The translations under genes and the position numbers were made by a program. Positions 25,154 through 45,174 of a DNA stretch of 64,000 nt are shown here, piece by piece. The stretch's first letter is position 1, and the number at the start of each line of letters is the position of its first letter. The notes under the pieces are model-generated. The model ran no database searches and was not told the origin of the DNA. It saw only the letters and a list, made by a program, of their open reading frames with translations. The stretch comes from Coriobacteriia bacterium (lineage in GTDB: Bacteria > Actinomycetota > Coriobacteriia > WRKU01 > JAENWW01), in NCBI GenBank assembly GCA_016649875.1, contig JAENWW010000002.1:84851-148850 (forward strand). The letters run 5' to 3'.

Positions 25154-26218
25154 ATGGATGAAGCAAAAAAAATACGCCTGACTCAAATGTCGAGCAAAGC
25201 CGGTTGAGCAGCGAAGTGGGGTCCGGCGGATCTCAAAGCGGTGCTGGATAAAATCGATCCCGGACAGAGCGACAATCTCATGCTCGGGTTCGAAACAAGC
25301 GACGATGCGGCTGTCTACAAGCTAACCGACGACATCGCCGGCTTGATGACGATTGACTTTTTCACGCCGATTGTCGATGACCCCTATGACTTCGGCCGCA
25401 TCACCGCGGCCAACGCGCTTTCGGACATATACGCCATGGGAGGCAAACCGCTCACCGCGTTGAACATGATTGCGTTTCCGTGTTCTTTGGGTCCCGACAT
25501 CGTCGGCGAAGTGGTGCGGGGCGGCGCCGAGAAAGTCGCGGAAGCCGGTGCAGTCGTCGTCGGCGGACACACGATAGACGATAAAGAACCGAAGTACGGT
25601 CTCTCGGTCTTCGGAGTCGTGAATCCTCTCAAGGTGCTTCGTAACAAGGGAGCGCGTGAGGCTGACGCAATCGTCGTCACCAAGGCGCTTGGCACCGGTC
25701 TATGGGGAACAGCCATTAAGCGCGGTGTGGCCGACGAGACAACCGCCCACGAGGCAATCGAATCCATGGCCAAACTCAATAAATACGCATGCGAGGCTCT
25801 CGAGGGAGTCGATGTCCATGCCCTTACCGACATCACCGGGTTCGGACTCGCCGGTCATCTGCACGAAATGGCGGAGGCGAGCGGTGTGGCCGCCCACATT
25901 GAGACGGAGTGCATACCTCTACTCGAGCAGGTCTATGAACTTTCAACCGGGAATGTGGTTCCGGGTCGCACGGCGGATATCATCGCTTGGACCCGAGAGT
26001 TTTTATCCTGGTCGGCCGAAAGTTATTCTCAGGAGGAGCGCCGCACGTGGATGCAAATTCTCTGTGATCCTCAAACAAGCGGCGGGCTTATGATTGCAAT
26101 GCCTCAAAACCAGGTTGAAACGTATTACGACAATCTCATCCGTATCGATTCGGATGCGATATGCGCAGTCGTCGGAACGTTCGAGCACGGAACTCCGGGC
26201 AAAATCACCATTAATTAG
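25154..26218 (+). CDS. selD: Selenide, water dikinase SelD, selenocysteine-containing (in-frame TGA)
   Basis: The 25241..26218 ORF has SelD motifs (DDAAVYKL, FFTPIVDDPYDFGRITAANALSDIYAMGGKP). Reading upstream in frame gives MDEAKKIRLTQMSSKAG-TGA-AAKWGPADLKAVL. This matches the E. coli N-terminus [30 protein letters not shown], with Sec at the catalytic Cys17 position. The TGA is at about 25205-25207 and the ATG at about 25154 (+/-1 nt counting uncertainty). A hairpin GGGGTCC-GGC-GGATCTC begins 11 nt after the TGA. Confidence 0.85.
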
Positions 26219-26285
26219 CTCGAAATATTTCTCAAATATCAATTATTATTATAATAACTATCAGCACTTTCAAAAAGGAGGCGGT

Positions 26286-26624
26286 ATGAAAAAATTCATG
26301 GTGCTTGCAACAGACGCAATCGGCAAGGGGAACGATGAGCTCGGCGCGATTCTCACACGTGTTTTTTTGACTTGTTTGGGGCAGGGGGAAGAGGTGCCCG
26401 AAGTTCTCGCTCTCATGAATGCAGGCGTTAAGTTGGCGTGTGAGGGCTCCGAAGTCCTCGATGAGCTCAGGGCCGTTGAAGCGCGAGGCGTGAAGATAAA
26501 AGCCTGTGGAACGTGTCTCGACTTTTTCGGAATCCGTGAGCAACTGATGGTCGGTGAGGCGGGAAAGATGCCCGATACCGTCGCAGCGCTCATGACGGCC
26601 GAGGACTCGATTGTAATCTCTTAA
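26286..26624 (+). CDS. Small DsrE/DsrF-like (YedF C-terminal-domain-like) protein, putative sulfur/selenium relay protein
   Basis: 112 aa, MKKFMVLATDAIGKGNDELG...KACGTCLDFFGI. Good RBS AAAGGAGG 6 nt upstream of ATG 26286. Located between selD and selA. The 176-aa track ORF is an artefactual 5' extension through an AT-rich promoter region. Confidence 0.5.
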   Translation: MKKFMVLATDAIGKGNDELGAILTRVFLTCLGQGEEVPEVLALMNAGVKLACEGSEVLDELRAVEARGVKIKACGTCLDFFGIREQLMVGEAGKMPDTVAALMTAEDSIVIS

Positions 26625-26698
26625 AAGAGCGCCTCGTTTCGGGTCCGTTTGTTGAAGCCGCAGGCGCGATTCAGGGATACATACGCTACAATGCAAGT

Positions 26699-28126
26699 AT
26701 GAAAACAAACATCACCACACAAGACCTTTTCAGATCATTGCCCAAGGTCGATGAAGTTCTCTCCGCGGAACAAGTCGCCGCGCTGCTACCGGCGGTTCCG
26801 CGCTCGGTGGTGCTTACTTCGGCACGTACTGCGATAGAAAATATGCGATCTGCCATCGCCACCGGGTCGCGAGCAGAACCGGTGTCACTTGCCGAAGTGG
26901 TGGCGGATACCATCTCAAGTGCACATATTCGTATGCAACCTTCGTTGCGAAGAGTCATCAATGCAACGGGTATAATCATTCACACGAATTTGGGACGGAG
27001 CATTTTGGCCGATTCGGCCGCCGAAGCGGTGCAAGAGGTAGCCTCGCATTATTCGACATTGGAATACAACTATGAAAGAGGCGTCCGCGGCTCACGCCAT
27101 GATCATGTAGAGTCTCTTCTTTGCGAGCTCACCGGAGCTGAGGCGGCTCTTGCGGTCAACAACAATGCGGCGGCGGTCATGATGTGTATCGCTTGTTTTT
27201 CACGTGGCCGGGAGGCAATCGTTTCTCGGGGGCAACTCGTCGAAATCGGCGGTTCGTTTCGTGTTCCCGACATCATGGCGGAGTCCGGTGCGCACATGGT
27301 GGAAGTGGGAGCGACGAACAAAACGCATCTTAAAGACTACGAAAATGCGACCAATGAGAAAACAGGTTTGTATCTCAAGGTCCATTCGTCCAATTACCGC
27401 GTGATCGGATTCACTTCGGAAGTCGAACTCGCCGAGCTTGTGGACCTCGGTGCGAAACATGACATTCCGGTTATGGAGGACCAAGGGTCCGGTGTTTTGC
27501 TCGATTTGAGAAAGTACGGTTTGCCCTATGAACCGACGGTTTCCGAATCGGTGAAAGCAGGGGCGAGCATCGTGACTTTTTCGGGAGATAAGCTTCTCGG
27601 GGGTCCCCAGGCAGGTATCATCGTCGGCAAATCTGAGGCGATTGCCCGGTTGAAAGCCCACCCTCTCGCCCGCGTGCTTCGTCTCGATAAGATGACCTTG
27701 GCCGCGCTGGAAGCCACGTTGATGATTTATCGCGATGAAGACAGGGCGGTTGAAGAAATTCCCACGCTTCACGCTTTGACGATGGATCTCGAAGAGTGCA
27801 AGACACGTGCGAACGGACTCGCCGAGTCTCTCCTCGAAGCTTTGAGAAAAGAAGGTCTACTCGGCACTGTGGATATTTCCGTCGATGTCGATATCGCTCG
27901 CGCCGGCGGAGGGTCGCTGCCTTTGGCCGACATTCCGACCGCTGTACTCTCGTTGAGATTCGAAGACGTTTCCGCCACTGAAGTCGAGCGTCTCTTGCGT
28001 ATCGATTCGCCGGTTCCCATCGTCGCGCGTATAAACGATGAGAGATTGCTCATCGATCCGCGTACGTTCGTGTCTGATGATGCATCTGTCGTCGTGGAGC
28101 AACTATGCAAAATACTGCGCCGCTGA
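26699..28126 (+). CDS. selA: L-seryl-tRNA(Sec) selenium transferase (selenocysteine synthase)
   Basis: 475 aa. SLPKVDEVL N-terminal motif. RVINATGIIIHTNLGRSILADSAAEAV (compare E. coli INATGTVLHTNLGRA). PLP-lysine region FSGDKLLGGPQAGII. Confidence 0.9.
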   Translation: MKTNITTQDLFRSLPKVDEVLSAEQVAALLPAVPRSVVLTSARTAIENMRSAIATGSRAEPVSLAEVVADTISSAHIRMQPSLRRVINATGIIIHTNLGRSILADSAAEAVQEVASHYSTLEYNYERGVRGSRHDHVESLLCELTGAEAALAVNNNAAAVMMCIACFSRGREAIVSRGQLVEIGGSFRVPDIMAESGAHMVEVGATNKTHLKDYENATNEKTGLYLKVHSSNYRVIGFTSEVELAELVDLGAKHDIPVMEDQGSGVLLDLRKYGLPYEPTVSESVKAGASIVTFSGDKLLGGPQAGIIVGKSEAIARLKAHPLARVLRLDKMTLAALEATLMIYRDEDRAVEEIPTLHALTMDLEECKTRANGLAESLLEALRKEGLLGTVDISVDVDIARAGGGSLPLADIPTAVLSLRFEDVSATEVERLLRIDSPVPIVARINDERLLIDPRTFVSDDASVVVEQLCKILRR

Positions 28127-30039
28127 TTCTGGGCACCGCCGGTCATATCGACCACGGAAAATCAACTTTGATAAAGGCTTTGACGGGCGTGGACCCCGAT
28201 CGCCTCGCCGAAGAAAAAGAGCGAGGCATCACCATCGAACTCGGTTTCGCCGAGTTGGTGACACCGAAAGGTGTGCACTTCGGCGTCGTCGATGTTCCCG
28301 GACATGAGAAGTTCGTGCGCCACATGGTTTCCGGTGCCGCCGGAATCGATGTCGCATTGCTGGTAATCGCTGCCGATGACGGAATCATGGTGCAAACGCG
28401 TGAGCATGCGGCCATTCTCAATTTGCTCGGTGTGGAACATGCGGTCGTCGCATTGACTAAAATCGATAGGGTCGAGGCGGACTGGGCCGATCTCGTCGAA
28501 ATGGATATAGAAACCCTTTTAGAGGGAACTCTTCTCGAAGGGTCGCCCGTCGTTCGCGTTTCATCGACGACCGGACGCGGCATCGAGGCGTTGCTAAGCG
28601 CACTCGACGACACTGCCGAAAAGATTGCTGAGCGGGGACGGACAAACAATACGTCCGTCGCTCGGCTTCCGATCGATCGCGTTTTCACCATCTCGGGGGC
28701 CGGGACGGTCGTGACGGGCACGTTATGGTCGGGGGCGATAGTGCTCGGCGATGAGCTGGAAGAGGTGTCCGCACACAAGAAAGTCCGCGTGCGCGGTATC
28801 CAAGTCCATAACGTCGATGTAGAACAAGCGTTGGCCGGAATGCGTGTCGCACTCAATCTATCGAATATCGATAAGTCCGAGGTATCTCGGGGCGACATGC
28901 TTGCCACGCGGGGTGCGCTTCGCGAAACGAATATCTTCAACGCAATCTTTACCTACATCGGCTCCGAGTCCTCGGAAAGCGACACCAAGCCGTTGAAGAG
29001 CGGGACTCGTGTTCACGTCCATCATGGAACCGTCGCAACTGTCGGCCAGATTTTTTTCTTCGACGAAAAGTCGATCCGGCCGAACCGGAGCGTCTTCGCT
29101 CAGATACGTTTGGAAAAACCGATAGCTCCCGTTTATCTCGACCATTTCATCATTCGAAGCTTTTCACCGGTTTTCACCATCGGAGGAGGCGTCGTCCTCG
29201 ATGCGTCTCCTGCAAAGCGTACGCGAATCTCTGCCGATGAGCACGACTTGCTCGAGGCGCTTGCGAGTCGAGATTACGAAAAGGCCGCATGCGAACTCCT
29301 CGTCGTCAAAAAGGAACCCCTGAGCAGTGCGATGATTGCCGGGCTGCTCGGATGCGAGCGGAGCCGCGTTGCAACTGCGCTCAATACTTCGAACGCAGCG
29401 CGCATCAAAGTCGCCAAAGAGACGCTGTTCGTCGATCCTCTCGTATACGACCATGTCGCCGCAGCGATAAAGACCGAGCTTCTCGCGCTCTACGACAGGT
29501 ATCCTTCTGAGCATGCTTTCTCCCTTCCGATGCTCAAAGACCGAGTCGATACGCGGATGACACCGGAGGTTTTTGCGGCATTCGCCGAAATCGCCGCCGA
29601 AGCGCCGGAAATCGAACTTGTCGCCGGTCGAATCAGCCATTCCGGGGCCGCGTCGAATATCCATGCGCTCGAAGATGAGATTGCACGACAGGCGCTCGCT
29701 CGTATCGGGCACCGGGGGTTGGAAGTCGAAACGACCGCTGAACTGGCGAGAGCGCTGGGGGCGGATTCAAAGTTCGTCGGTCGCATTCTCGGACGAATCG
29801 CCTCCGAAGGGGGACTCATCCGCCTCGCGGGGGATTTGCATTTTTTGCCCGGAGATGTCTCAAAAGCTGAAGAAATCGTGAAGAAGGCACTGCGAGATGC
29901 GACTGCCGAGGCACCCGTATCTGCCTCGGAATTGTGCGCTGCAATGGGTTTGAGCAGGAAGTATGCCATTCCGCTTCTCGAGTACTTCGATTCGCAGGGT
30001 GTTACGCGTCGAATCGGCAATGGGAGAATTCTCGTTTGA
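28105..30039 (+). CDS. selB: Selenocysteine-specific translation elongation factor SelB
   Basis: 644 aa. GTPase N-terminus ILGTAGHIDHGKSTLIKALTG, DVPGHEKF, NKID. Long C-terminal winged-helix extension as in SelB. Overlaps selA by 22 nt. Confidence 0.9.
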   Translation: MQNTAPLILGTAGHIDHGKSTLIKALTGVDPDRLAEEKERGITIELGFAELVTPKGVHFGVVDVPGHEKFVRHMVSGAAGIDVALLVIAADDGIMVQTREHAAILNLLGVEHAVVALTKIDRVEADWADLVEMDIETLLEGTLLEGSPVVRVSSTTGRGIEALLSALDDTAEKIAERGRTNNTSVARLPIDRVFTISGAGTVVTGTLWSGAIVLGDELEEVSAHKKVRVRGIQVHNVDVEQALAGMRVALNLSNIDKSEVSRGDMLATRGALRETNIFNAIFTYIGSESSESDTKPLKSGTRVHVHHGTVATVGQIFFFDEKSIRPNRSVFAQIRLEKPIAPVYLDHFIIRSFSPVFTIGGGVVLDASPAKRTRISADEHDLLEALASRDYEKAACELLVVKKEPLSSAMIAGLLGCERSRVATALNTSNAARIKVAKETLFVDPLVYDHVAAAIKTELLALYDRYPSEHAFSLPMLKDRVDTRMTPEVFAAFAEIAAEAPEIELVAGRISHSGAASNIHALEDEIARQALARIGHRGLEVETTAELARALGADSKFVGRILGRIASEGGLIRLAGDLHFLPGDVSKAEEIVKKALRDATAEAPVSASELCAAMGLSRKYAIPLLEYFDSQGVTRRIGNGRILV

Positions 30040-30082
30040 CAATGGGCGTGATTATTCCCACAATGGTAAAGCTTGTAAACTC

Positions 30083-30179
30083 GGAGCCGGATTCGTCCTG
30101 GTGGGCGACGCGGCCTTCAAAGCCGTCGTGAGGGGTGAAGAACTTCTCGGGTGTGTTCGATTCGCACACGGTTCCGCCA
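30083..30179 (+). tRNA. selC: tRNA-Sec (anticodon UCA)
   Basis: 97 nt, GGAGCCGGATTCGTCCTGGTGGGCGACGCGGCCTTCAAAGCCGT...TGTGTTCGATTCGCACACGGTTCCGCCA. 6-bp D-stem TCGTCC/GGGCGA with a 4-nt D-loop TGGT (the Sec hallmark). Anticodon loop CTTCAAA. Long variable arm. T-loop TTCGATT. G73 then CCA. Lies 44 nt after the selB stop. Confidence 0.8.
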
Positions 30180-38903: not shown

Positions 38904-41771
38904 GTGAAGCGCACGAAAGCGTTGGTTTCTGTTGCGTTGAGCGCGCTATGTTTCGGAACTCTGGCCGTGTTGACGCCGATGGCGTACGCCGCGCATGTGG
39001 AGCCTTTGCCTCTACTCGCGTGGCGTTTTTTCATCGCCGCGCTTGTCATCGGATTTTTGGCCTACCGGCGCAATAAGCATGCGTTCAAAGTGCCCAAGCG
39101 CGATTTGGCACGCTATTTCGCTCTTTCGCTATTTGGGTACGGAGCTTCCTCGCTCGCTTTTTTCATTGCGCTTAAGCACGCCGGTTCCGCGGTGGTATCG
39201 GCTCTTCTGTATGCTTATCCCGCTATCGTGGCGCTTGCCGCTGTGGTTTTCTTCAAAGAGAAGTTGAATCGCAACAAAATAATCGCCATTATCGCGGTCG
39301 CCGTGGGATGCTCACTTGTCGTCGGTCTTTTCGGAGGGAAAGCATCCGCCGAGCCGCTCGGCATCATTCTTGCTCTCATGGCGGCATTTTGCTATGCCGC
39401 GTTCAATCTCATGTCGCAAAGGTGGCTTCCCGGACGGTCGTCGATGACGATGATGTCGTTCACGTTCGGATTTTCCGCCGTACTTTTCGTGATACTGTCA
39501 TTGATCAGCGGTGGGCCGGCACTGCTCTTCAGTGCCATCGGTTGGTCGACTCGGGCGTGGGTACTCATGATACTCATCATCATTTTCCCCACGGTGGTAG
39601 CGATTTTGCTGTACTTGCGCGGCGTCAGACAACTCGGTGCTTCCGAGGCGGCTATCGTATCGACGCTCGAGCCTTTGTTCACCGTACTGTTCGCATGGCT
39701 TGCACTCGGACAAGTGCTCGGGTCCGTTCAGCTTTTAGGTGTGCTGCTGATCGTCGGAGGTATCGCCGCAAGCTCCATAGTCGGTAAAACGGCTGAACCG
39801 CCACCGACCGTTCCGTTGACGACCGATGAAATCCAACAAAATCAACAGCCTGAAAAACCGCCTTTGTCGAAGGGGGAAAGGCGTGGCAAAAAAATCTTCA
39901 TTGCAGTTTTAAGTGTCATCGCCGTCCTCATACTCATTCAAGTCATTGTGATATCCGGTGTTGTGTGGCTGCTCAATCAACCCGCCCCCGACATTTCTTC
40001 GCACAACATTTCGGAGCGGTCTTCTCAAGATTCCATCGTCTACGGCGCCGACGGTAGCGTGCTCGCTACGTGGAAGGGCGATGAAGATCGGGCTATCGTT
40101 GCGTATGCAGCGATACCCCAATGCGTGAAAAATTCGACGGTCGCCATTGAAGACAAACGATTTTACGAGCATGGAGGGGTCGACGTAATCTCAATCGCCA
40201 GGGCGTTGAAGAGAAACACCGAAGCCGGGGTCATCAAACAAGGGGGAAGTACCATCACCCAGCAGCTGATTAAGATGCTCTATACCGGAGATAAACGTAC
40301 GCTTTCACGCAAACTCCGAGAAGCCATCATGGCGACGCGTGTCGAGATGGTCTATGACAAAGATCGTGTTTTGGAGGGCTATCTCAACATGGCTTATTAC
40401 GGGCAAGGTGCGTACGGAATCCAAAGTGCGGCAACCAAATATTTCAGCAAGGATGTGCAGAGACTCAATATTCAAGAAGCCGCCATGCTCGCCGGCCTCG
40501 TGCGGTCGCCGAGTGCCTATAATGCTTTCAAAAATCCGGGGCCCGTCAAGAAACGACGAGATTTAGTGCTCAGGGCGATGAACGAGCAGGGGATGATCAC
40601 GGCGGCACAGTATGAGCTTGCGAAAAATTCTCCGCTCGGTCTTGTGCCTCCCAACTCAGTCTCGCAACAAGTGAAATATCCTTTCTTCGTTGATTACGTT
40701 CGGCGCGACCTCATAAGTAAGCTCGGTGAGGAGGCTGTCAATCACGGTGGACTCGCGGTGCGTACGACGTTCGATCCCGCTCTTCAAAATGCGGCGGAAG
40801 CGACAGCGAAGAAATTCAACAAAAATACCGACCCTGAAGTTTCCATCGTCACCGTCCGACAATCCGACGGAGCGGTATTGGCGATGGTCGGGGGACGCGA
40901 TTGGGGACAGAACCAATATAACTTGGCCACACAGGGCAGAAGGCAGCCGGGATCTGCATTCAAGCCGTTTACGCTTATCACGGCACTCGAAAACGGAGTG
41001 TCACTCAGCAAAACGTATTCCACGGCGTCCTATTCGACTCCTGTCAAAGATGGGGTGTGGAAGGTTTCGAACTTCTCAGAGAGCATGACTTCGAGTTCGA
41101 TGACACTTCGTCAGGCAACCGTGTGGTCGGTCAACACCGTATATGCGCGATTGATAATGCAGGTGGGGGCGAAAAAGGTCGCCGCTACGGCGAAAAAGAT
41201 GGGGTTTTCAAGCGAGATCAATCCCGACCCGGCAATTGCGCTCGGTGGCTTGAAATACGGGGTATCTCCTCTTGAGATGGCATCGGCATATGCGACAATC
41301 GCCGATAATGGGCAACGGACACCGACGACGGGAATCGTTTCCGTCGTCGACCGTGACGGAAAAACGCTCTATAAGCCATCCTTGAAAAAGACGCGCATAT
41401 ATTCTGAAAAGACGGGAGTGCAAGTCGCATCCGTTCTGCACGAGGTGGTGGCAGACGGTACGGGGCAGGCCTCACGTATTTCTGAAAGTTCCGCCGGTAA
41501 AACCGGTACGACGCAATCGTATCGCGATGCATGGTTCGTCGGTTGGGCGCACGGTGTTTCGACCGCCGTGTGGATGGGGCATCCCGAAGCCCAAGTGGAA
41601 ATGACTCATGTCAGGGGAAAAGCGGTCACGGGTGGAAGTTTCCCTGCGCAGATGTGGGCCCGATACATGCAAAGCGCCATCGAAATCCGTCCCCTTCAAG
41701 GTTGCCTTATGTCTGCGCACCAGCAAACGGTGACAGGCGGGCAAGGGGTCGATGTGGTGGCTGAGCCCTGA
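38904..41771 (+). CDS. Fusion ORF: N-terminal EamA/DMT-type 10-TM transporter domain (~300 aa) + class A penicillin-binding protein (TM anchor, GT51 transglycosylase, transpeptidase)
   Basis: Continuous 955-aa ORF with a GTG start at 38904 and a GAAAGGGAG RBS. Residues 1-300 are 10 hydrophobic helices with a tandem EamA pattern. Then comes a Pro/Gln linker and a TM KKIFIAVLSVIAVLILIQVIVISGVV. Then GT51 motifs EDKRFYEHGGVD and GGSTITQQL. Then the transpeptidase region (SAFKPF for SxxK, SxN, KTGT). Confidence 0.7.
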   Translation: MKRTKALVSVALSALCFGTLAVLTPMAYAAHVEPLPLLAWRFFIAALVIGFLAYRRNKHAFKVPKRDLARYFALSLFGYGASSLAFFIALKHAGSAVVSALLYAYPAIVALAAVVFFKEKLNRNKIIAIIAVAVGCSLVVGLFGGKASAEPLGIILALMAAFCYAAFNLMSQRWLPGRSSMTMMSFTFGFSAVLFVILSLISGGPALLFSAIGWSTRAWVLMILIIIFPTVVAILLYLRGVRQLGASEAAIVSTLEPLFTVLFAWLALGQVLGSVQLLGVLLIVGGIAASSIVGKTAEPPPTVPLTTDEIQQNQQPEKPPLSKGERRGKKIFIAVLSVIAVLILIQVIVISGVVWLLNQPAPDISSHNISERSSQDSIVYGADGSVLATWKGDEDRAIVAYAAIPQCVKNSTVAIEDKRFYEHGGVDVISIARALKRNTEAGVIKQGGSTITQQLIKMLYTGDKRTLSRKLREAIMATRVEMVYDKDRVLEGYLNMAYYGQGAYGIQSAATKYFSKDVQRLNIQEAAMLAGLVRSPSAYNAFKNPGPVKKRRDLVLRAMNEQGMITAAQYELAKNSPLGLVPPNSVSQQVKYPFFVDYVRRDLISKLGEEAVNHGGLAVRTTFDPALQNAAEATAKKFNKNTDPEVSIVTVRQSDGAVLAMVGGRDWGQNQYNLATQGRRQPGSAFKPFTLITALENGVSLSKTYSTASYSTPVKDGVWKVSNFSESMTSSSMTLRQATVWSVNTVYARLIMQVGAKKVAATAKKMGFSSEINPDPAIALGGLKYGVSPLEMASAYATIADNGQRTPTTGIVSVVDRDGKTLYKPSLKKTRIYSEKTGVQVASVLHEVVADGTGQASRISESSAGKTGTTQSYRDAWFVGWAHGVSTAVWMGHPEAQVEMTHVRGKAVTGGSFPAQMWARYMQSAIEIRPLQGCLMSAHQQTVTGGQGVDVVAEP

Positions 41772-41785
41772 AAGACGTGCGGAGC

Positions 41786-42157
41786 TTAAGACCAGTTACT
41801 TTCGGGCGCATCGGCGAGGCGGGCGAGGCGGCTTTGCTCCTCCTCGATTGCACTTATGACTTTCGGCAGAGTAATCAAACCATCGTAAAAAATTGTTTCG
41901 TTGACCGTGGAAATCGGCCAAAACAAACTGCGCTCCTGTATTTCATGGATGAGTTTTTCACTGAGAAGAGACGGGTTTTCATTGACATCGACATACTCGA
42001 CGTCGACATCGGGGTATCGGCGTTCGACTTCATCGCCGACCATTGCGGTGATCTCAGACTGAGACCATGAAGGGCCTCAACCGCCTGAAAAGCAGTTCGC
42101 TTCTTCGGGACGGTCGTACACTCTGATATGGATGGTTTTTACATTGGGAATCGACAT
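41786..42157 (-). CDS. Candidate selenoprotein: small thioredoxin-fold-like protein with in-frame TGA (Sec) in a C-x4-U-G-P-S motif
   Basis: Minus strand, ATG at 42157. MSIPNVKTIHIRVYDRPEEANCFSGG-TGA(42079..42077)-GPSWSQSEITA runs in frame into the 85-aa track ORF MVGDEVERRY...FWPISTVNETIFYDGLITLPK. A 6-bp hairpin GGTCTC-AGTCT-GAGATC starts 11 nt after the TGA. A complete sel gene set is present in the same window. Confidence 0.45.
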
Positions 42158-42388
42158 GGGCTCAACTTTCTCATTAAAAGTATTTAGATTTTTCAATATA
42201 AAACATTTACGAACGAAATGAAAGGGCTTTGGGAAAATAGGGATATTCCTCATTTTTCAGTTCGAAAAAACAGCTCCGTATTATTGTGTTTAGCTGTGAC
42301 TTCATATAAAGTTTATACTATATGGAATTTATGAGGAGATGCGTTTTCGAATACTCTTCATTTGTGGTTTGAGAAGGAGAAGATACGT

Positions 42389-43327
42389 ATGGCTTGTCAC
42401 CCAATAGCTGCGTTTAAAAACCCAGTGACTCGGCCGCGCGCAATCATTTGGACGGGAACGATTCTTGCATCGTTGTGCATGCTCGTGTTCGTCATGTTTG
42501 CAGCGACCACATCGTATTGGTTCTGCGCCGGCATTTGTCACAGCGTACAAGATGACACTATCGGTTCCTACCAGCGGTCCGCGCACAGCAATGTGTCTTG
42601 TATCGCATGTCACCTTCCCGCTAATGCGAATCCGCTCGTTTACGCAATCCACAAGGTGGAGGCTCTCCCCGAATTGCCGATGGCCATATTCGGCAACTAC
42701 ACTCTTCCGCTCAACGCCGAGAGTGAAGTCTCGATGAGCAAAAAGCTGTTCCCCGACACGCAGTGTACCCAGTGCCATGATTTGAGCACTCGTGAAGTCA
42801 CGCCAAGTAGCGGAATCATCATCGATCACACGGCGCATGCCGATGAAGGCGTTCGTTGTACGATGTGCCACAACCGCGTAGCGCACAACGAATCCGGCGA
42901 TTGGTCTCCGACCGGCGTCAACCCGAAAACTAAAGAGCCGAGCGCAAAGCATGCCGACTTCTTGACGATGACGGCGTGCTATCGTTGCCACGGTCTCGAA
43001 AAAGGTTCGCCTGCGCCCGGAACATGTTTGACATGCCATCCAAAGACTTTCAATTTCAAGCCGAGTGATCACGCGACCGCAGACTTCATGAAAAACCACG
43101 GTAAACTCGCCAAGGCTGAAGTCGAGAAGGTCGCCGAAGCGACCAAGGAAACGGGAGTCCCCTCGCCGACCGCGGATGAAAAATTTGCTTCAGTCGAAAA
43201 ACTGGCTGCTCAAAAGAATGATAAGTCTTCCAAGGATGACGCGACGCTTGCTCCCGTCGGGACGATTGATCGCTGTTATAGCTGTCACGATAAGGCGACG
43301 TTCTGCGACAAGTGTCACGGCAAGTAG
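42389..43327 (+). CDS. Membrane-anchored multiheme c-type cytochrome (NapC/NirT/NrfH-like N-terminus; 7 CXXCH + 1 CX3CH)
   Basis: N-terminal TM AIIWTGTILASLCMLVFVMFAA. Heme-binding motifs CIACH, CTQCH, CTMCH, CYRCH, CLTCH, CYSCH, CDKCH, plus CAGICH. ATG at 42389 with a GAGAAGGAGAAG RBS. Confidence 0.8.
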   Translation: MACHPIAAFKNPVTRPRAIIWTGTILASLCMLVFVMFAATTSYWFCAGICHSVQDDTIGSYQRSAHSNVSCIACHLPANANPLVYAIHKVEALPELPMAIFGNYTLPLNAESEVSMSKKLFPDTQCTQCHDLSTREVTPSSGIIIDHTAHADEGVRCTMCHNRVAHNESGDWSPTGVNPKTKEPSAKHADFLTMTACYRCHGLEKGSPAPGTCLTCHPKTFNFKPSDHATADFMKNHGKLAKAEVEKVAEATKETGVPSPTADEKFASVEKLAAQKNDKSSKDDATLAPVGTIDRCYSCHDKATFCDKCHGK

Positions 43328-43479: not shown

Positions 43480-43556
<77 letters not shown>

Positions 43557-44475: not shown

Positions 44476-45174
44476 ATGCATGCATTTCTCAATTATATCT
44501 TTTTGGTCGGTTCGGGATTATGCCACCAAATACCTGCGCGCTCGTTATTTTTCAATGGCGTGCAGCTGCCGCTTTGCGCACGTTGCACAGGGATCTATGT
44601 CGGCTTCATCGTAGCATTCCTCATTTTGGCATTTGCGTACCGTTCCGCGAATCGGCGCGGAGGCTTATCCTGGTTCTATTATCCGGTCGGCGTGGTGTTG
44701 ATTCTTCCCATGATTTATGACGGGTTTTCTTCTTACCTGGGCTTTCGTTCGACGACCAACGGACTTCGACTCGTCACGGGCGCCGCGTTCGGAGCGGCAC
44801 TGGCTCCGATCATCTATGCCCTCATCGCGGATGCGCTCATGGCGAGAGGCGAGGAGACCGAGGTACTCGGGGATGTTTCGGGCAGAGTACTTTATTTGTG
44901 TGCCGTTCCCTTGACGGTCATGGGTGTACATGTCGTCGGGGATATTTCGGTCTTTGTTTTGTATTTCCTGGTGGCACTGAGCGTACTCTCGCTCTTTACG
45001 TTGACGGCGCTGGCGGTCGTTGCGACATTGCCCCCGTATTATCGCACGGTTTCAAACGTGCGCACGGCCCTTCTGCCGTGCGCCATCGCGTTGATTCTCG
45101 GTGTCGCGATTTTATTCGGAACATGGCAACTGCAAACCGAAATTCATAGAATGATCGGTTATTCGTCGGTGTAG
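44476..45174 (+). CDS. DUF2085-like integral membrane protein
   Basis: CHQIPARSLFFNGVQLPLCARCTGIY N-terminal Cys motif typical of DUF2085, followed by multiple TMs. Confidence 0.5.
   Translation: MHAFLNYIFLVGSGLCHQIPARSLFFNGVQLPLCARCTGIYVGFIVAFLILAFAYRSANRRGGLSWFYYPVGVVLILPMIYDGFSSYLGFRSTTNGLRLVTGAAFGAALAPIIYALIADALMARGEETEVLGDVSGRVLYLCAVPLTVMGVHVVGDISVFVLYFLVALSVLSLFTLTALAVVATLPPYYRTVSNVRTALLPCAIALILGVAILFGTWQLQTEIHRMIGYSSV

What the first reader, a model, noticed from the sequence alone, without database searches (positions are those of the whole stretch)
41786..42157. Probable unannotated selenoprotein: small thioredoxin-fold-like protein with a C-x4-U-G-P-S motif, divergent from a multiheme cytochrome c
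The 85-aa track ORF (41786..42043, minus) continues upstream in frame through a TGA (42079..42077) to ATG 42157. This gives a 123-residue product, MSIPNVKTIHIRVYDRPEEANCFSGG-U-GPSWSQSEITAMVGDEV... The Sec follows a beta-strand-like segment and sits in a U-G-P-S context resembling the Trx CGPC / monothiol CGPS active site. A Cys lies 5 residues upstream, and a cis-Pro-like WPIS...FYDG segment follows. A 6-bp hairpin GGUCUC-AGUCU-GAGAUC starts 11 nt after the UGA, the same spacing as in selD of this window. The Sec machinery is encoded 12 kb away. The gene shares a promoter region with a hepta/octa-heme cytochrome, suggesting a redox partner role.
Basis: partly seen in the sequence, partly recalled or inferred. 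Interest (0 to 1): 0.7.

Follow-up and report, generated by a model that had tools for sequence, protein, structure and literature searches.

The report
Uncatalogued selenoprotein family, mis-annotated as truncated
The 85-residue "DUF1462 family protein" annotated here is really a 123-residue thioredoxin-fold selenoprotein whose UGA codon is read as selenocysteine; it belongs to a family of at least 130 distinct sequences that public databases truncate at that codon and that I could not find in any selenoprotein catalogue I checked.

Summary
The ORF 42157..41786 (-) runs through an in-frame TGA (42079..42077).

The same `C-F-S-G-G-TGA-G-P-x-W-S` context, with a conserved N-terminal beta-strand before it, occurs in 68 species genomes and 77 metagenome contigs (130 distinct sequences). 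Most are environmental Coriobacteriia, with a few Chloroflexota. When TGA, TGC or TGT was allowed at that codon, 77 of 77 family members had TGA.

A small nested clade has Cys at the aligned position, but only with a remodelled, Cys-enriched loop (`CCSSGCCGP`).

An 8-bp hairpin with a G-initiated triloop lies at nt 13-31 from the UGA. It is 99% base-paired across 75 sequences, has one compensatory pair, and uses a UCU Ser codon in 74 of 74 cases. Its geometry matches the selD SECIS of this window. Only these two of the window's 2,187 TGAs have it. selD, selA, selB and tRNA-Sec lie 12-17 kb away.

The protein belongs to DUF1462/YuzD (PF07315) and has a thioredoxin fold. Its Cys-x4-Sec loop aligns with ArsD Cys12 and Cys18.

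Function is inferred, not shown. A Cys/Sec redox centre is most likely, with an ArsD-like metal(loid)-binding site as the rival. A redox partnership with the neighbouring cytochrome is not established. The family is absent from the reviews I checked and from NCBIfam.

The parts
41786..42157 (-). Full coding sequence of the selenoprotein: 123 codons plus stop. Product: MSIPNVKTIHIRVYDRPEEANCFSGG-U-GPSWSQSEITAMVGDEV...ESNWS
   Evidence: The start at 42157 is the one conserved in relatives; further upstream the relatives have stop codons.
42080..42157 (-). N-terminal 26 codons missing from the public annotation. They encode beta-strand 1 (TIHIRVYD) and the loop carrying Cys22.
   Evidence: Synonymous changes with the amino acids conserved. 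The motif [VI]x[VI]xV[FY]DxP is conserved in 130 distinct sequences with no stop in the 16 codons upstream. Beta-1 is part of the central sheet in the model of the Cys form.
42077..42079 (-). UGA codon 27, read as selenocysteine
   Evidence: TGA is conserved in 68 species genomes and 77 metagenome contigs. With TGC and TGT also allowed, 77 of 77 family members had TGA. Cys is at the aligned position in P0010 and P0014-18.
42049..42067 (-). SECIS hairpin: 8-bp stem U-GGUCUCA / UGAGAUC-A with triloop GUC, at nt 13-31 from the U of UGA
   Evidence: 99.2% of 600 cells paired across 75 sequences, against 38-69% in slid controls. The closing pair is C-G in 67 sequences and A-U in 6. Ser codon UCU in 74 of 74 and Glu GAG in 77 of 77 inside the stem. 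Same geometry as the selD hairpin. Only 2 of 2,187 TGAs in the window have it.
41786..42043 (-). The 85-aa ORF as currently annotated (GenBank MBK5211025.1): the C-terminal 69% of the real protein, starting at Met39
   Evidence: Met39 is not conserved as an internal start across the family.
42181..42196 (-). Conserved non-coding motif TTGAAAAATCTAAATA, 25-45 nt upstream of the start codon (candidate promoter or operator)
   Evidence: Conserved in the window clade and intermediate clades. No sigma-70 consensus was found. Function not tested.
42362..43327 (+). Divergently transcribed NapC/NirT-type multihaem cytochrome c (321 aa; N-terminal membrane anchor; 8 haem motifs). A conserved neighbour, not shown to be a partner.
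   Evidence: Pfam Cytochrom_NNT 7.7e-14. Orthologues are adjacent in the window clade and within three genes in 32 loci overall.
25154..26218 (+). selD (selenophosphate synthetase), itself a selenoprotein with UGA at 25205-25207 and a SECIS hairpin of the same geometry
26699..30039 (+). selA (26699-28126) and selB (28105-30039)
   Evidence: Pfam SelA 3.8e-149; SelB-specific domains SelB-wing_3 and Beta-barrel_SelB
30083..30179 (+). tRNA-Sec (selC), anticodon TCA
   Evidence: ARAGORN; Rfam RF01852, 68 bits

Best explanation
**Identity (shown, about 0.9).** The gene at 42157..41786 (-) encodes a 123-residue cytoplasmic selenoprotein of the DUF1462/YuzD branch of the thioredoxin-fold superfamily.
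- UGA codon 27 is decoded as selenocysteine by the selA/selB/selC/selD system encoded 12-17 kb away.
- Decoding is directed by an 8-bp hairpin with a G-initiated triloop. The loop lies at nt 21-23 counted from the U of UGA, the same geometry as the SECIS in this organism's own selD.
- The 85-aa public annotation is a truncation artefact. It lacks beta-strand 1 and the whole active-site loop.

**Mechanism (inferred, about 0.5).** Cys22 and Sec27 sit on the beta1-alpha1 loop, opposite the invariant cis-Pro-type proline (Pro81). This is where DUF1462 has its C-x-x-C and ArsD its Cys12/13/18 site. I propose they form a redox-active selenenylsulfide/selenol-thiol couple, so that the protein acts as a small reductase or disulfide-exchange protein for a specific client. 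In the main clade it is co-transcribed with a small 4Fe-4S ferredoxin and a DUF362+4Fe-4S protein, which are the likely electron source or client. The window's clade has lost those two genes and keeps only the divergent multihaem cytochrome as a neighbour.
For: **Conservation of the UGA and both flanks**
- The in-frame TGA with conserved coding sequence on both sides is present in close relatives and in divergent relatives at 36-54% identity.
- It is present in 68 of 69 genome hits to a motif pattern for which I estimated about one chance match.
- It is present in 77 metagenome contigs.
- Across 130 distinct sequences there are no stops in the 16 codons upstream, and the N-terminal strand lying outside the searched pattern is conserved.

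**Sec/Cys pairing**
- Full-length Cys forms P0010 and P0014-18 align Cys at the U position.
- They nest within the Sec clade, at 59-69% identity to Sec-form neighbours.
- The Cys-form gene keeps a degenerate hairpin.

**SECIS**
- Pair counts and slid controls support the helix.
- Codon bias is confined to the stem.
- Synonymous sites are suppressed: 2 of 19 third positions vary against about 0.6 elsewhere.
- The geometry matches selD, and only 2 of 2,187 TGAs in the window have it.

**Sec machinery:**

**Family and fold**
- PF07315 scores 32.3 bits against a cut-off of 25, and 9 of 9 members match.
- PDB 1xg8 matches at E 7e-9, with C22 and U27 aligned to its C-A-S-C.
- The AlphaFold model of the Cys form has a thioredoxin fold at pLDDT 81.

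**Operon partners:** ferredoxin immediately upstream in 20 loci and DUF362+Fer4 immediately downstream in 24.
Against: - There is no experimental evidence of selenium incorporation.
- Covariation in the hairpin is limited: one truly compensatory pair. The stem overlaps conserved codons (W-S-P/Q-x-E-I), so part of its conservation is protein-level.
- Single-sequence folding of the region is not significant (z -0.6 to -1.5), and the MFE prefers an alternative pairing that includes the UGA.
- bSECISearch could not be run.
- For the redox mechanism, the Cys-x4-Sec spacing is unlike the CxxU/UxxC of known redox selenoproteins.
- The Cys forms add two extra cysteines (`CCSSGCCGP`) and reproduce ArsD's metalloid-binding motif, which fits a metal(loid) ligand site at least as well.
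- The active-site loop is the low-confidence part of the model.
- The window's own gene lacks the ferredoxin and DUF362 partners.
Confidence: 0.85

Rival explanations
1. The selenoprotein identity is the same, but the Cys22/Sec27 loop is a soft-metal or metalloid binding and transfer site, as in the arsenic metallochaperone ArsD, rather than a redox couple. The Sec selenolate and Cys thiolate would bind a metal or metalloid, or possibly an Fe-S cluster, and hand it to a partner.
For: - hhalign of the family profile against verified ArsD R773 aligns C22 with C12, F23 with C13 and U27 with C18 over 80 columns (E 2.3e-4).
- The Pfam ArsD model matches 4 of 9 members (3.1e-5) and NCBIfam chaperon_ArsD matches 2 of 9.
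- The Cys forms carry `CC-SS-G-C-C-G`, which is ArsD's `CC-ST-G-V-C-G` plus one more Cys. Haft interprets a similar Cys overload in the Cys versions of other selenoproteins as a sign of metal binding (bioRxiv 10.1101/2022.07.06.499078).
- The site is a flexible loop, as in the low-confidence region of the model.
Against: - The window protein itself does not reach any ArsD model. hhalign probability is only 44%.
- The Sec forms have only two chalcogen ligands, because ArsD's Cys13 is Phe.
- No arsA, arsB, acr3 or other metal-resistance gene family recurred among the neighbours in about 80 loci.
- The recurrent partners are Fe-S electron-transfer proteins.
- The cultured Anaerosomatales do not respire arsenate, selenate or selenite (PMC9686372).
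Confidence: 0.3
2. The public annotation is right: the TGA is a true stop. The real products are an 85-aa protein starting at Met39, possibly with a separate 26-aa peptide, or the locus is a pseudogene.
For: Every gene caller and GenBank annotate only the short form. Single-sequence RNA folding is not significant.
Against: - A pseudogene would not keep an intact frame on both sides of the TGA in 130 distinct sequences across two or three phyla.
- The internal Met is not conserved: codon +12 is Ile or Leu in most sequences, and the first Met falls at variable positions.
- The short form would lack beta-strand 1 and the only conserved Cys/Sec loop of a thioredoxin fold.
- Full-length Cys forms exist.
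Confidence: 0.03
3. The UGA is read through, but not as selenocysteine: for example as Trp, Cys or Gly by near-cognate suppression or a reassigned code.
For: One JGI gene call (P0019) shows Trp at this position.
Against: - P0019's nearest genomic relative (L049) has TGA there, so the Trp most likely comes from a TGA=Trp gene-calling table (inference).
- TGA is used as an ordinary stop elsewhere in these loci.
- The window encodes a complete Sec system.
- The hairpin has the geometry of the selD SECIS.
- The only natural replacement found is Cys, the hallmark of Sec sites.
Confidence: 0.03

Closest known systems
DUF1462 / YuzD family (Pfam PF07315; structure 1xg8, S. aureus SA0798; named 'disulfide oxidoreductase YuzD' by some pipelines)
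   Different: - The classical family has C-x-x-C. Here the loop is two residues longer (C-F-S-G-G-U) and the second Cys is selenocysteine.
- The Pfam model aligns only from residue 31 onward, so the active-site region lies outside the model match.
- Taxonomy differs: Coriobacteriia and Chloroflexota MAGs here, against S. aureus and Bacillus examples for the classical family (the Bacillus attribution is from memory).
- YuzD itself has no experimentally defined function in the papers I could search.
ArsD arsenic metallochaperone (Pfam PF06953, NCBIfam NF033727; structures 3mwh, 3kgk, 3ktb)
   Different: The window protein does not match the ArsD models. ArsD's Cys13 is Phe in all Sec forms. There is no ars operon context. 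ArsD is not known as a selenoprotein; no relevant paper links ArsD and selenocysteine.
Known thioredoxin-fold selenoproteins of bacteria (thioredoxin-like Sec.1/Sec.2 PF13192, SaoT NF040730, Grx-like UXX-star NF041114, DsbA-like, Prx-like and others)
   Same: A small thioredoxin-fold protein with Sec in the active-site region. Cys homologs exist, a bacterial SECIS lies directly after the UGA, and the gene is routinely truncated in databases.
   Different: No NCBIfam selenoprotein model matches (best is NF041114 at E 0.083 for one of nine members). The motif C-x4-U-G-P is not among the motifs listed in the 2022 and 2026 catalogues. Cys never replaces Sec without remodelling of the loop.
Thioredoxin proper (WCGPC)
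   Same: The fold. `U-G-P` can be laid over `C-G-P` of the thioredoxin motif.
   Different: The alignment is not significant (E 0.18-0.2). There is no resolving Cys at +3 (Ser instead). The partner Cys lies 5 residues upstream. The loop between beta-1 and the Sec is about 6 residues longer.

Membership tests
Bacterial selenoprotein gene (SelB/SECIS-dependent UGA recoding) | In-frame UGA conserved among orthologues, with conserved coding sequence on both sides | tested here: met
   130 distinct sequences, no stops in the 16 codons upstream, 1 of 130 with a stop in the next 70 codons.
Bacterial selenoprotein gene (SelB/SECIS-dependent UGA recoding) | Homologs with Cys aligned at the Sec position | tested here: met
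   P0010 and P0014-P0018. L014 carries TGC where its relative L015 carries TGA.
Bacterial selenoprotein gene (SelB/SECIS-dependent UGA recoding) | Stem-loop immediately downstream of the UGA, with a G in the apical loop at a fixed distance | tested here: met
   8-bp stem at nt 13-20/24-31, triloop G-N-N in nearly all sequences. 99.2% paired; one compensatory pair; codon bias UCU 74 of 74. Same geometry as selD. bSECISearch itself was not available.
Bacterial selenoprotein gene (SelB/SECIS-dependent UGA recoding) | selA, selB, selC and selD in the same genome | tested here: met
   All four are in the window at 25154-30179. Not checked for the other 68 genomes.
Bacterial selenoprotein gene (SelB/SECIS-dependent UGA recoding) | Selenium physically present in the protein | not testable with these tools
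   Needs 75Se labelling or mass spectrometry.
DUF1462 / YuzD (PF07315) | Score above the Pfam gathering threshold | tested here: met
   32.3 bits against 25 for the window protein; 9 of 9 members match, best E 2.5e-11.
DUF1462 / YuzD (PF07315) | Thioredoxin fold as in 1xg8 | tested here: met
DUF1462 / YuzD (PF07315) | C-x-x-C on the beta1-alpha1 loop | tested here: not met
   Replaced by C-x4-U. The alignment to 1xg8 needs a 2-residue insertion. This is a distinct subfamily rather than a typical member.
ArsD metallochaperone (PF06953 / NF033727) | Match to the family models | tested here: not met
   No hit for the window protein. Weak hits for 4 of 9 (Pfam) and 2 of 9 (NCBIfam) members, mainly Cys forms. 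hhalign E 2.3e-4, probability 44%.
ArsD metallochaperone (PF06953 / NF033727) | Cys12-Cys13-Cys18 triad | tested here: not met
   The window has Cys22 (=C12), Phe23 (=C13) and Sec27 (=C18). The triad is complete only in the Cys forms.
ArsD metallochaperone (PF06953 / NF033727) | Linkage to arsA or an ars operon | tested here: not met
   No ars-type family recurred among the neighbours clustered from about 80 loci.
Thioredoxin (WCGPC) | CGPC dithiol motif and a significant sequence match | tested here: not met
   UGPS with no Cys at +3. Thioredoxin chains match only at E 0.011-1.2, without the active site in the best one.

The most novel reading that the evidence does not exclude
This would be the first selenoprotein built on the ArsD/DUF1462 loop architecture. 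A Cys-x4-Sec site would act as a selenium-based ligand for a soft metal, a metalloid or an Fe-S/cofactor intermediate, not as a classical redox couple.

The supporting observations are that Sec is obligatory (0 of 77 Cys substitutions with the flanks intact), and that the only Cys versions compensate by adding two more cysteines.

In the main clade the protein would work in a three-gene module with a small ferredoxin and a DUF362+4Fe-4S protein. DUF362 belongs to the same Pfam clan as the nickel-pincer enzyme LarA. The role could be cofactor or metal-centre assembly in anaerobic, cytochrome-rich Coriobacteriia.
Probability: 0.25. Interest if true: 0.7.

Novelty: new member of a known kind. Interest (0 to 1): 0.58.

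Why it matters
**Annotation.** At least 130 distinct genes, in 68 or more species genomes, are deposited as 59-88-aa fragments ("DUF1462 family protein", "disulfide oxidoreductase YuzD"). These fragments lack the active site. A curated model flagged for Sec would repair them, and it would add a family to the roughly 111 catalogued bacterial selenoprotein families (BSepDB count).

**Biology.** The family gives DUF1462/YuzD, a domain of unknown function, a clear functional residue. It also supplies a sequence bridge between DUF1462 and ArsD.

**Why Sec.** The family is an unusually clean case of obligate selenocysteine. Cys never substitutes unless the loop gains two extra cysteines. That makes it a natural experiment on what Sec provides that Cys cannot.

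**Recoding signal.** The minimal 8-bp/triloop SECIS shared with selD defines what this lineage's SelB recognises. That can be used to search for further selenoproteins in Coriobacteriia, a class for which I found no selenoproteome study in the papers I searched.

Tried and rejected
- **Exhaustive HMMER input.** I used a profile of the four 85-aa calls instead.
- **First word-indexed search.** It found only four close relatives and gave the false impression of a tiny family. The profile search later found 512.
- **Rfam.** At gathering thresholds it found only tRNAs and no SECIS family.
- **Single-sequence folding.** It was not significant around the UGA, and the MFE structure pairs the UGA itself. 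The evidence for the hairpin is comparative, not thermodynamic.
- **Promoter and terminator scans.** The sigma-70 and terminator scans of 41650-42450 found nothing.
- **PDB profile search.** It did not list ArsD at E up to 10. The ArsD link appears only through Pfam/NCBIfam hits to some members and through hhalign.
- **Chloroflexota neighbourhoods.** They gave no recurring partner, only noisy high-GC ORFs.
- **Look-up of sequences containing U.** The tool rejected them, so I could not check directly whether any database already stores a corrected Sec form.
- **Multihaem selenoenzyme MccSep (PMC13510729).** I considered it as a link to the neighbouring cytochrome and dropped it. It is a pentahaem Geobacter enzyme that I judged unrelated to the NapC/NirT-type neighbour, from its abstract only.
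- **BSepDB family table.** It is not held as text, so absence from that table could not be verified. I relied on the 2022 and 2026 review tables, the deep-Sep paper, Haft's preprint and NCBIfam.
Full report
**1. The observation**

On the minus strand, an ATG at 42157 opens a frame that runs through a TGA at 42079..42077 to a TAA at 41788..41786. The 123-codon product is MSIPNVKTIHIRVYDRPEEANCFSGG*GPSWSQSEITAMVGDEV...ESNWS.

The mechanical ORF list contains only the 85-aa piece from Met39 (41786..42043) and a 58-aa piece ending at the TGA. GenBank holds the 85-aa piece as MBK5211025.1, 'DUF1462 family protein', from a Coriobacteriia MAG.

The window also carries selD, selA, selB and tRNA-Sec:
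- selD at 25154-26218, itself with an in-frame UGA at 25205
- selA at 26699-28126
- selB at 28105-30039
- tRNA-Sec at 30083-30179

The divergent gene at 42362..43327 is a membrane-anchored NapC/NirT-type multihaem cytochrome. Only the hairpin description needed refining.

**2. Is the UGA conserved, and are both sides coding?**

Close relatives at about 80% identity (L001-L006) keep the TGA, the flanking CFSGG/GPSWSQSEITAM, and an N-terminal extension that differs mostly by synonymous or conservative changes.

An exhaustive HMMER search with the 85-aa profile gave a few more distant hits. For the five short ones, the DNA upstream again reads ...CFSGG-TGA-GP[SA]WS..., preceded by a beta-strand-like [VI]x[VI]xV[FY]DxP segment and a start codon.

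A DNA pattern encoding C-F-S-G-G-TGA-G-P-x-W was then scanned over one genome per species (596 Gb). I estimated about one chance match. It matched in 69 genomes:
- 68 encode full family members.
- The 69th (L052) has no ORF and is the expected chance hit.

The carriers are mostly environmental Coriobacteriia and other Actinomycetota MAGs. They include Anaerosomatales, a Slackia MAG and 'Coriobacteriaceae bacterium EMTCatB1'. There are also MAGs labelled Eubacteriales and four Chloroflexota.

A second scan over metagenome contigs allowed TGA, TGC or TGT at the critical codon. It returned 77 family members, all with TGA, and 9 TGC/TGT matches that are unrelated sequences.

Pooling everything gives 130 distinct Sec-form segments:
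- None has a stop in the 16 codons before the UGA.
- One has a stop in the 70 codons after it.
- The N-terminal strand, which was not part of the pattern, is conserved (Val at -14 in 124 of 130, Asp at -12 in 121 of 130, Pro at -10 in 107 of 130).
- There is no conserved internal Met.

A pseudogene or a true stop cannot explain this.

**3. Cys homologs**

A profile search with nine hand-assembled full-length sequences (U written as C; alignment A3) returned 512 proteins. Among the 120 listed, seven are 121-130 aa long and the rest are 66-88-aa fragments covering only the C-terminal 31-69% of the query.

Six of the full-length ones (P0010, P0014-18) have Cys at the Sec column. Their loop is remodelled to CCSSGCCGP or CSSGCCCGP, with four cysteines where the Sec forms have Cys...Sec. 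They are 59-69% identical to Sec-form neighbours, so they form a small derived clade. The one Cys-form gene I could read (L014) retains a degenerate copy of the hairpin.

The seventh, P0019, shows Trp at the Sec column. Its genomic relative L049 has TGA there, so this is most likely a gene call made with a TGA=Trp table (inference).

**4. The recoding signal**

In every lineage, nucleotides 13-31 counted from the U of UGA form an 8-bp stem closing a 3-nt loop:
- UGGUCUCC-GGA-GGAGAUCA in the main clade
- UGGUCUCA-GUC-UGAGAUCA in the window's clade
- UGGUCUUC-GGA-GGAGACCA in Chloroflexota

On 75 distinct sequences, 99.2% of 600 cells form standard pairs, against 38-69% when the 3' partners are slid by one to three columns. 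The loop-closing pair is C-G in 67 sequences and A-U in 6, a compensatory change that marks the window's clade. Five other pairs vary only through G-U wobble.

Because the stem overlaps the conserved codons W-S-[PQ]-x-E-I, I also looked at synonymous choice:
- The Ser inside the stem is UCU in 74 of 74 cases.
- The two other conserved Ser codons nearby use UCU in 4 of 77 and 6 of 69 cases.
- The Glu in the stem is GAG in 77 of 77 cases.
- Among the close relatives, third positions vary at 2 of 19 codons around the hairpin, against about 60% elsewhere.

The selD gene of this window has a hairpin of identical geometry: stem at nt 13-20/24-31, loop GGC at nt 21-23, z = -3.8. A scan of all 2,187 TGA triplets of the window for a perfect helix of that geometry with a G-initiated triloop finds exactly two, selD and this gene.

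Thermodynamic folding of the single sequence is not significant and prefers an alternative pairing. The case therefore rests on comparative evidence.

**5. What protein is it?**

- **Pfam.** It places the window protein in DUF1462 (PF07315; 32.3 bits, cut-off 25), as it does all nine full-length members. Four of the nine also weakly match ArsD.
- **Solved structures.** The family profile matches 1xg8 (S. aureus SA0798, DUF1462) at E 7e-9. Cys22 and Sec27 align to its C-A-S-C, with a two-residue insertion in our family. Thioredoxins match only weakly.
- **Model.** An AlphaFold model of the Cys form P0010 gives a beta-alpha-beta-alpha-beta-beta-alpha thioredoxin fold (pLDDT 81). Only the Cys-rich beta1-alpha1 loop is poorly defined. 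Sequences containing Sec cannot be submitted, so the window protein itself was not modelled.
- **ArsD alignment.** Against a verified ArsD sequence, hhalign aligns 80 columns (E 2.3e-4, probability 44%). It puts Cys22 on ArsD Cys12, Phe23 on Cys13 and Sec27 on Cys18. The Cys forms reproduce ArsD's CC-S[ST]-G-x-C-G motif.

The invariant Pro81 precedes beta-3, at the place of the thioredoxin cis-proline. The protein has no N-terminal signal or membrane segment, so it is presumably cytoplasmic. This is my reading of the sequence; no predictor was run.

**6. Surroundings**

I clustered neighbouring ORFs from about 80 loci.

| Neighbour | Position | Loci |
|---|---|---|
| EamA transporter gene (fused to a class A PBP in the window's clade) | convergent, downstream | 58 |
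| Methyl-accepting-type signalling protein | divergent, upstream | 37 |
| ~690-aa multihaem cytochrome | divergent, upstream | 32 |
| Small 4Fe-4S ferredoxin | same strand, immediately upstream | 20 |
| DUF362 + 4Fe-4S protein | same strand, immediately downstream | 24 |

The last two look like operon partners in the main clade. The window's clade (window, L001-7, L080, and the intermediates L008, L010, L012) lacks both. There the cytochrome is the immediate divergent neighbour.

The Chloroflexota loci share none of these genes. The block may therefore be inherited synteny within Coriobacteriia rather than a functional module.

NapC/NirT cytochromes expose their haems outside the membrane (established knowledge). 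A cytoplasmic selenoprotein is therefore an unlikely direct partner.

**7. Mechanism**

*Shown:* the elements needed for Sec insertion are present, and the protein is a thioredoxin-fold DUF1462 relative with Cys22 and Sec27 on the active-site loop.

*Inferred:* the most likely chemistry is a selenenylsulfide/selenol-thiol redox cycle, fed by or acting on Fe-S proteins. I put this at about 0.5.

The main rival is an ArsD-like ligand site for a soft metal, a metalloid or a cluster, at about 0.3. In its favour are the motif correspondence and the Cys overload of the Cys forms. Against it are the missing third ligand and the absence of any ars or metal-resistance context.

**8. Novelty**

I found no mention of this family in any of the following:
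- DUF1462, YuzD, PF07315, PF06953 and a C-x4-U motif are absent from the 2026 catalogue of prokaryotic selenoproteins (PMC13188914).
- DUF1462, YuzD and ArsD are absent from the 2022 review table (PMC9312934), the deep-Sep paper, the BSepDB main text and Haft's preprint on eight new families.
- NCBIfam release 20 has no model that matches.
- The motif strings occur in no held paper.

The BSepDB supplementary table and subscription-only literature could not be checked.

I therefore rate it as a new member of a known kind: a thioredoxin-fold bacterial selenoprotein with a standard SelB/SECIS mechanism. It has an unusual Cys-x4-Sec loop and strictly obligate Sec.

**9. Verdict**

Confidence in the selenoprotein identity is about 0.9 and in the redox mechanism about 0.5. 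Interest is moderate to high for selenium biology and genome annotation. It is not a new principle.

Noticed in passing
window 42181-42196 (-) and about 42301-42314 (-): Two short AT-rich non-coding motifs lie in the 204-bp region between the selenoprotein gene and the divergent cytochrome: TTGAAAAATCTAAATA and (G/A)AACTTTATATGAA. They are conserved across the window's clade and the more distant L007, L080, L010, L012 and L008. No sigma-70 consensus was found. They could be promoter elements or a shared operator.
   Followed up: partly
window 42362-43327 (+); L001, L010, L080: The window's cytochrome is 321 aa, with 7 CxxCH motifs and a first motif of the form CX3CH. The orthologues next to the same gene in relatives are 685-713 aa. 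The C-terminal half is missing here, and tRNA-Pro follows at 43480.
   Followed up: no
window 25154-26218 (+), UGA at 25205-25207: selD is itself a selenoprotein (...SSKAG-U-AAKWGPADL). Its SECIS hairpin has exactly the geometry found in the DUF1462 gene (stem nt 13-20/24-31, loop GGC; z = -3.8).
   Followed up: yes
window 26094-26624 (+): An ORF between selD and selA has a borderline DsrE/DsrF Pfam hit (22.5 bits, cut-off 22.7). DsrE-like proteins are a known selenoprotein family and are often linked to selenium metabolism. No in-frame TGA or SECIS was looked for in detail.
   Followed up: no
window 38904-41771 (+); L001, L008, L010: The convergent downstream gene is an unusual fusion: an EamA-type transporter (two EamA domains) joined to a class A penicillin-binding protein (transglycosylase plus transpeptidase), 955-988 aa. 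The fusion is conserved in the window's clade. In the main clade the EamA gene appears to be separate.
   Followed up: no
L031, L061, L051, L068, L077, L082 and others (main clade loci): There is a probable three-gene operon: small 4Fe-4S ferredoxin, Sec-DUF1462, then DUF362+4Fe-4S protein. The gaps run from about -10 to +45 nt. DUF362 is in the same Pfam clan as the LarA nickel-pincer racemases (PMC11770544). Its function is unknown.
   Followed up: partly
L014:505-870 (Cys-form gene, P0010): The Cys form keeps a degenerate copy of the hairpin (UGGUCUU-CUGAA-GAGAUCA) after its TGC codon, a 'fossil SECIS'. This is consistent with a recent Sec-to-Cys conversion accompanied by the gain of two extra cysteines.
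   Followed up: partly
P0019 (JGI contig, 130 aa) versus L049: One public gene call reads the Sec codon as Trp (CFSGG-W-GPSWS). This is probably because the contig was called with a TGA=Trp genetic code. It gives the only full-length 'Sec-form' protein in the database, with the wrong residue.
   Followed up: partly
window 44476-45174 (+) and 12 other loci: A DUF2085 membrane protein recurs two to three genes upstream of the selenoprotein gene in Coriobacteriia loci, and also on the JGI contig that carries the Cys form P0010.
   Followed up: no
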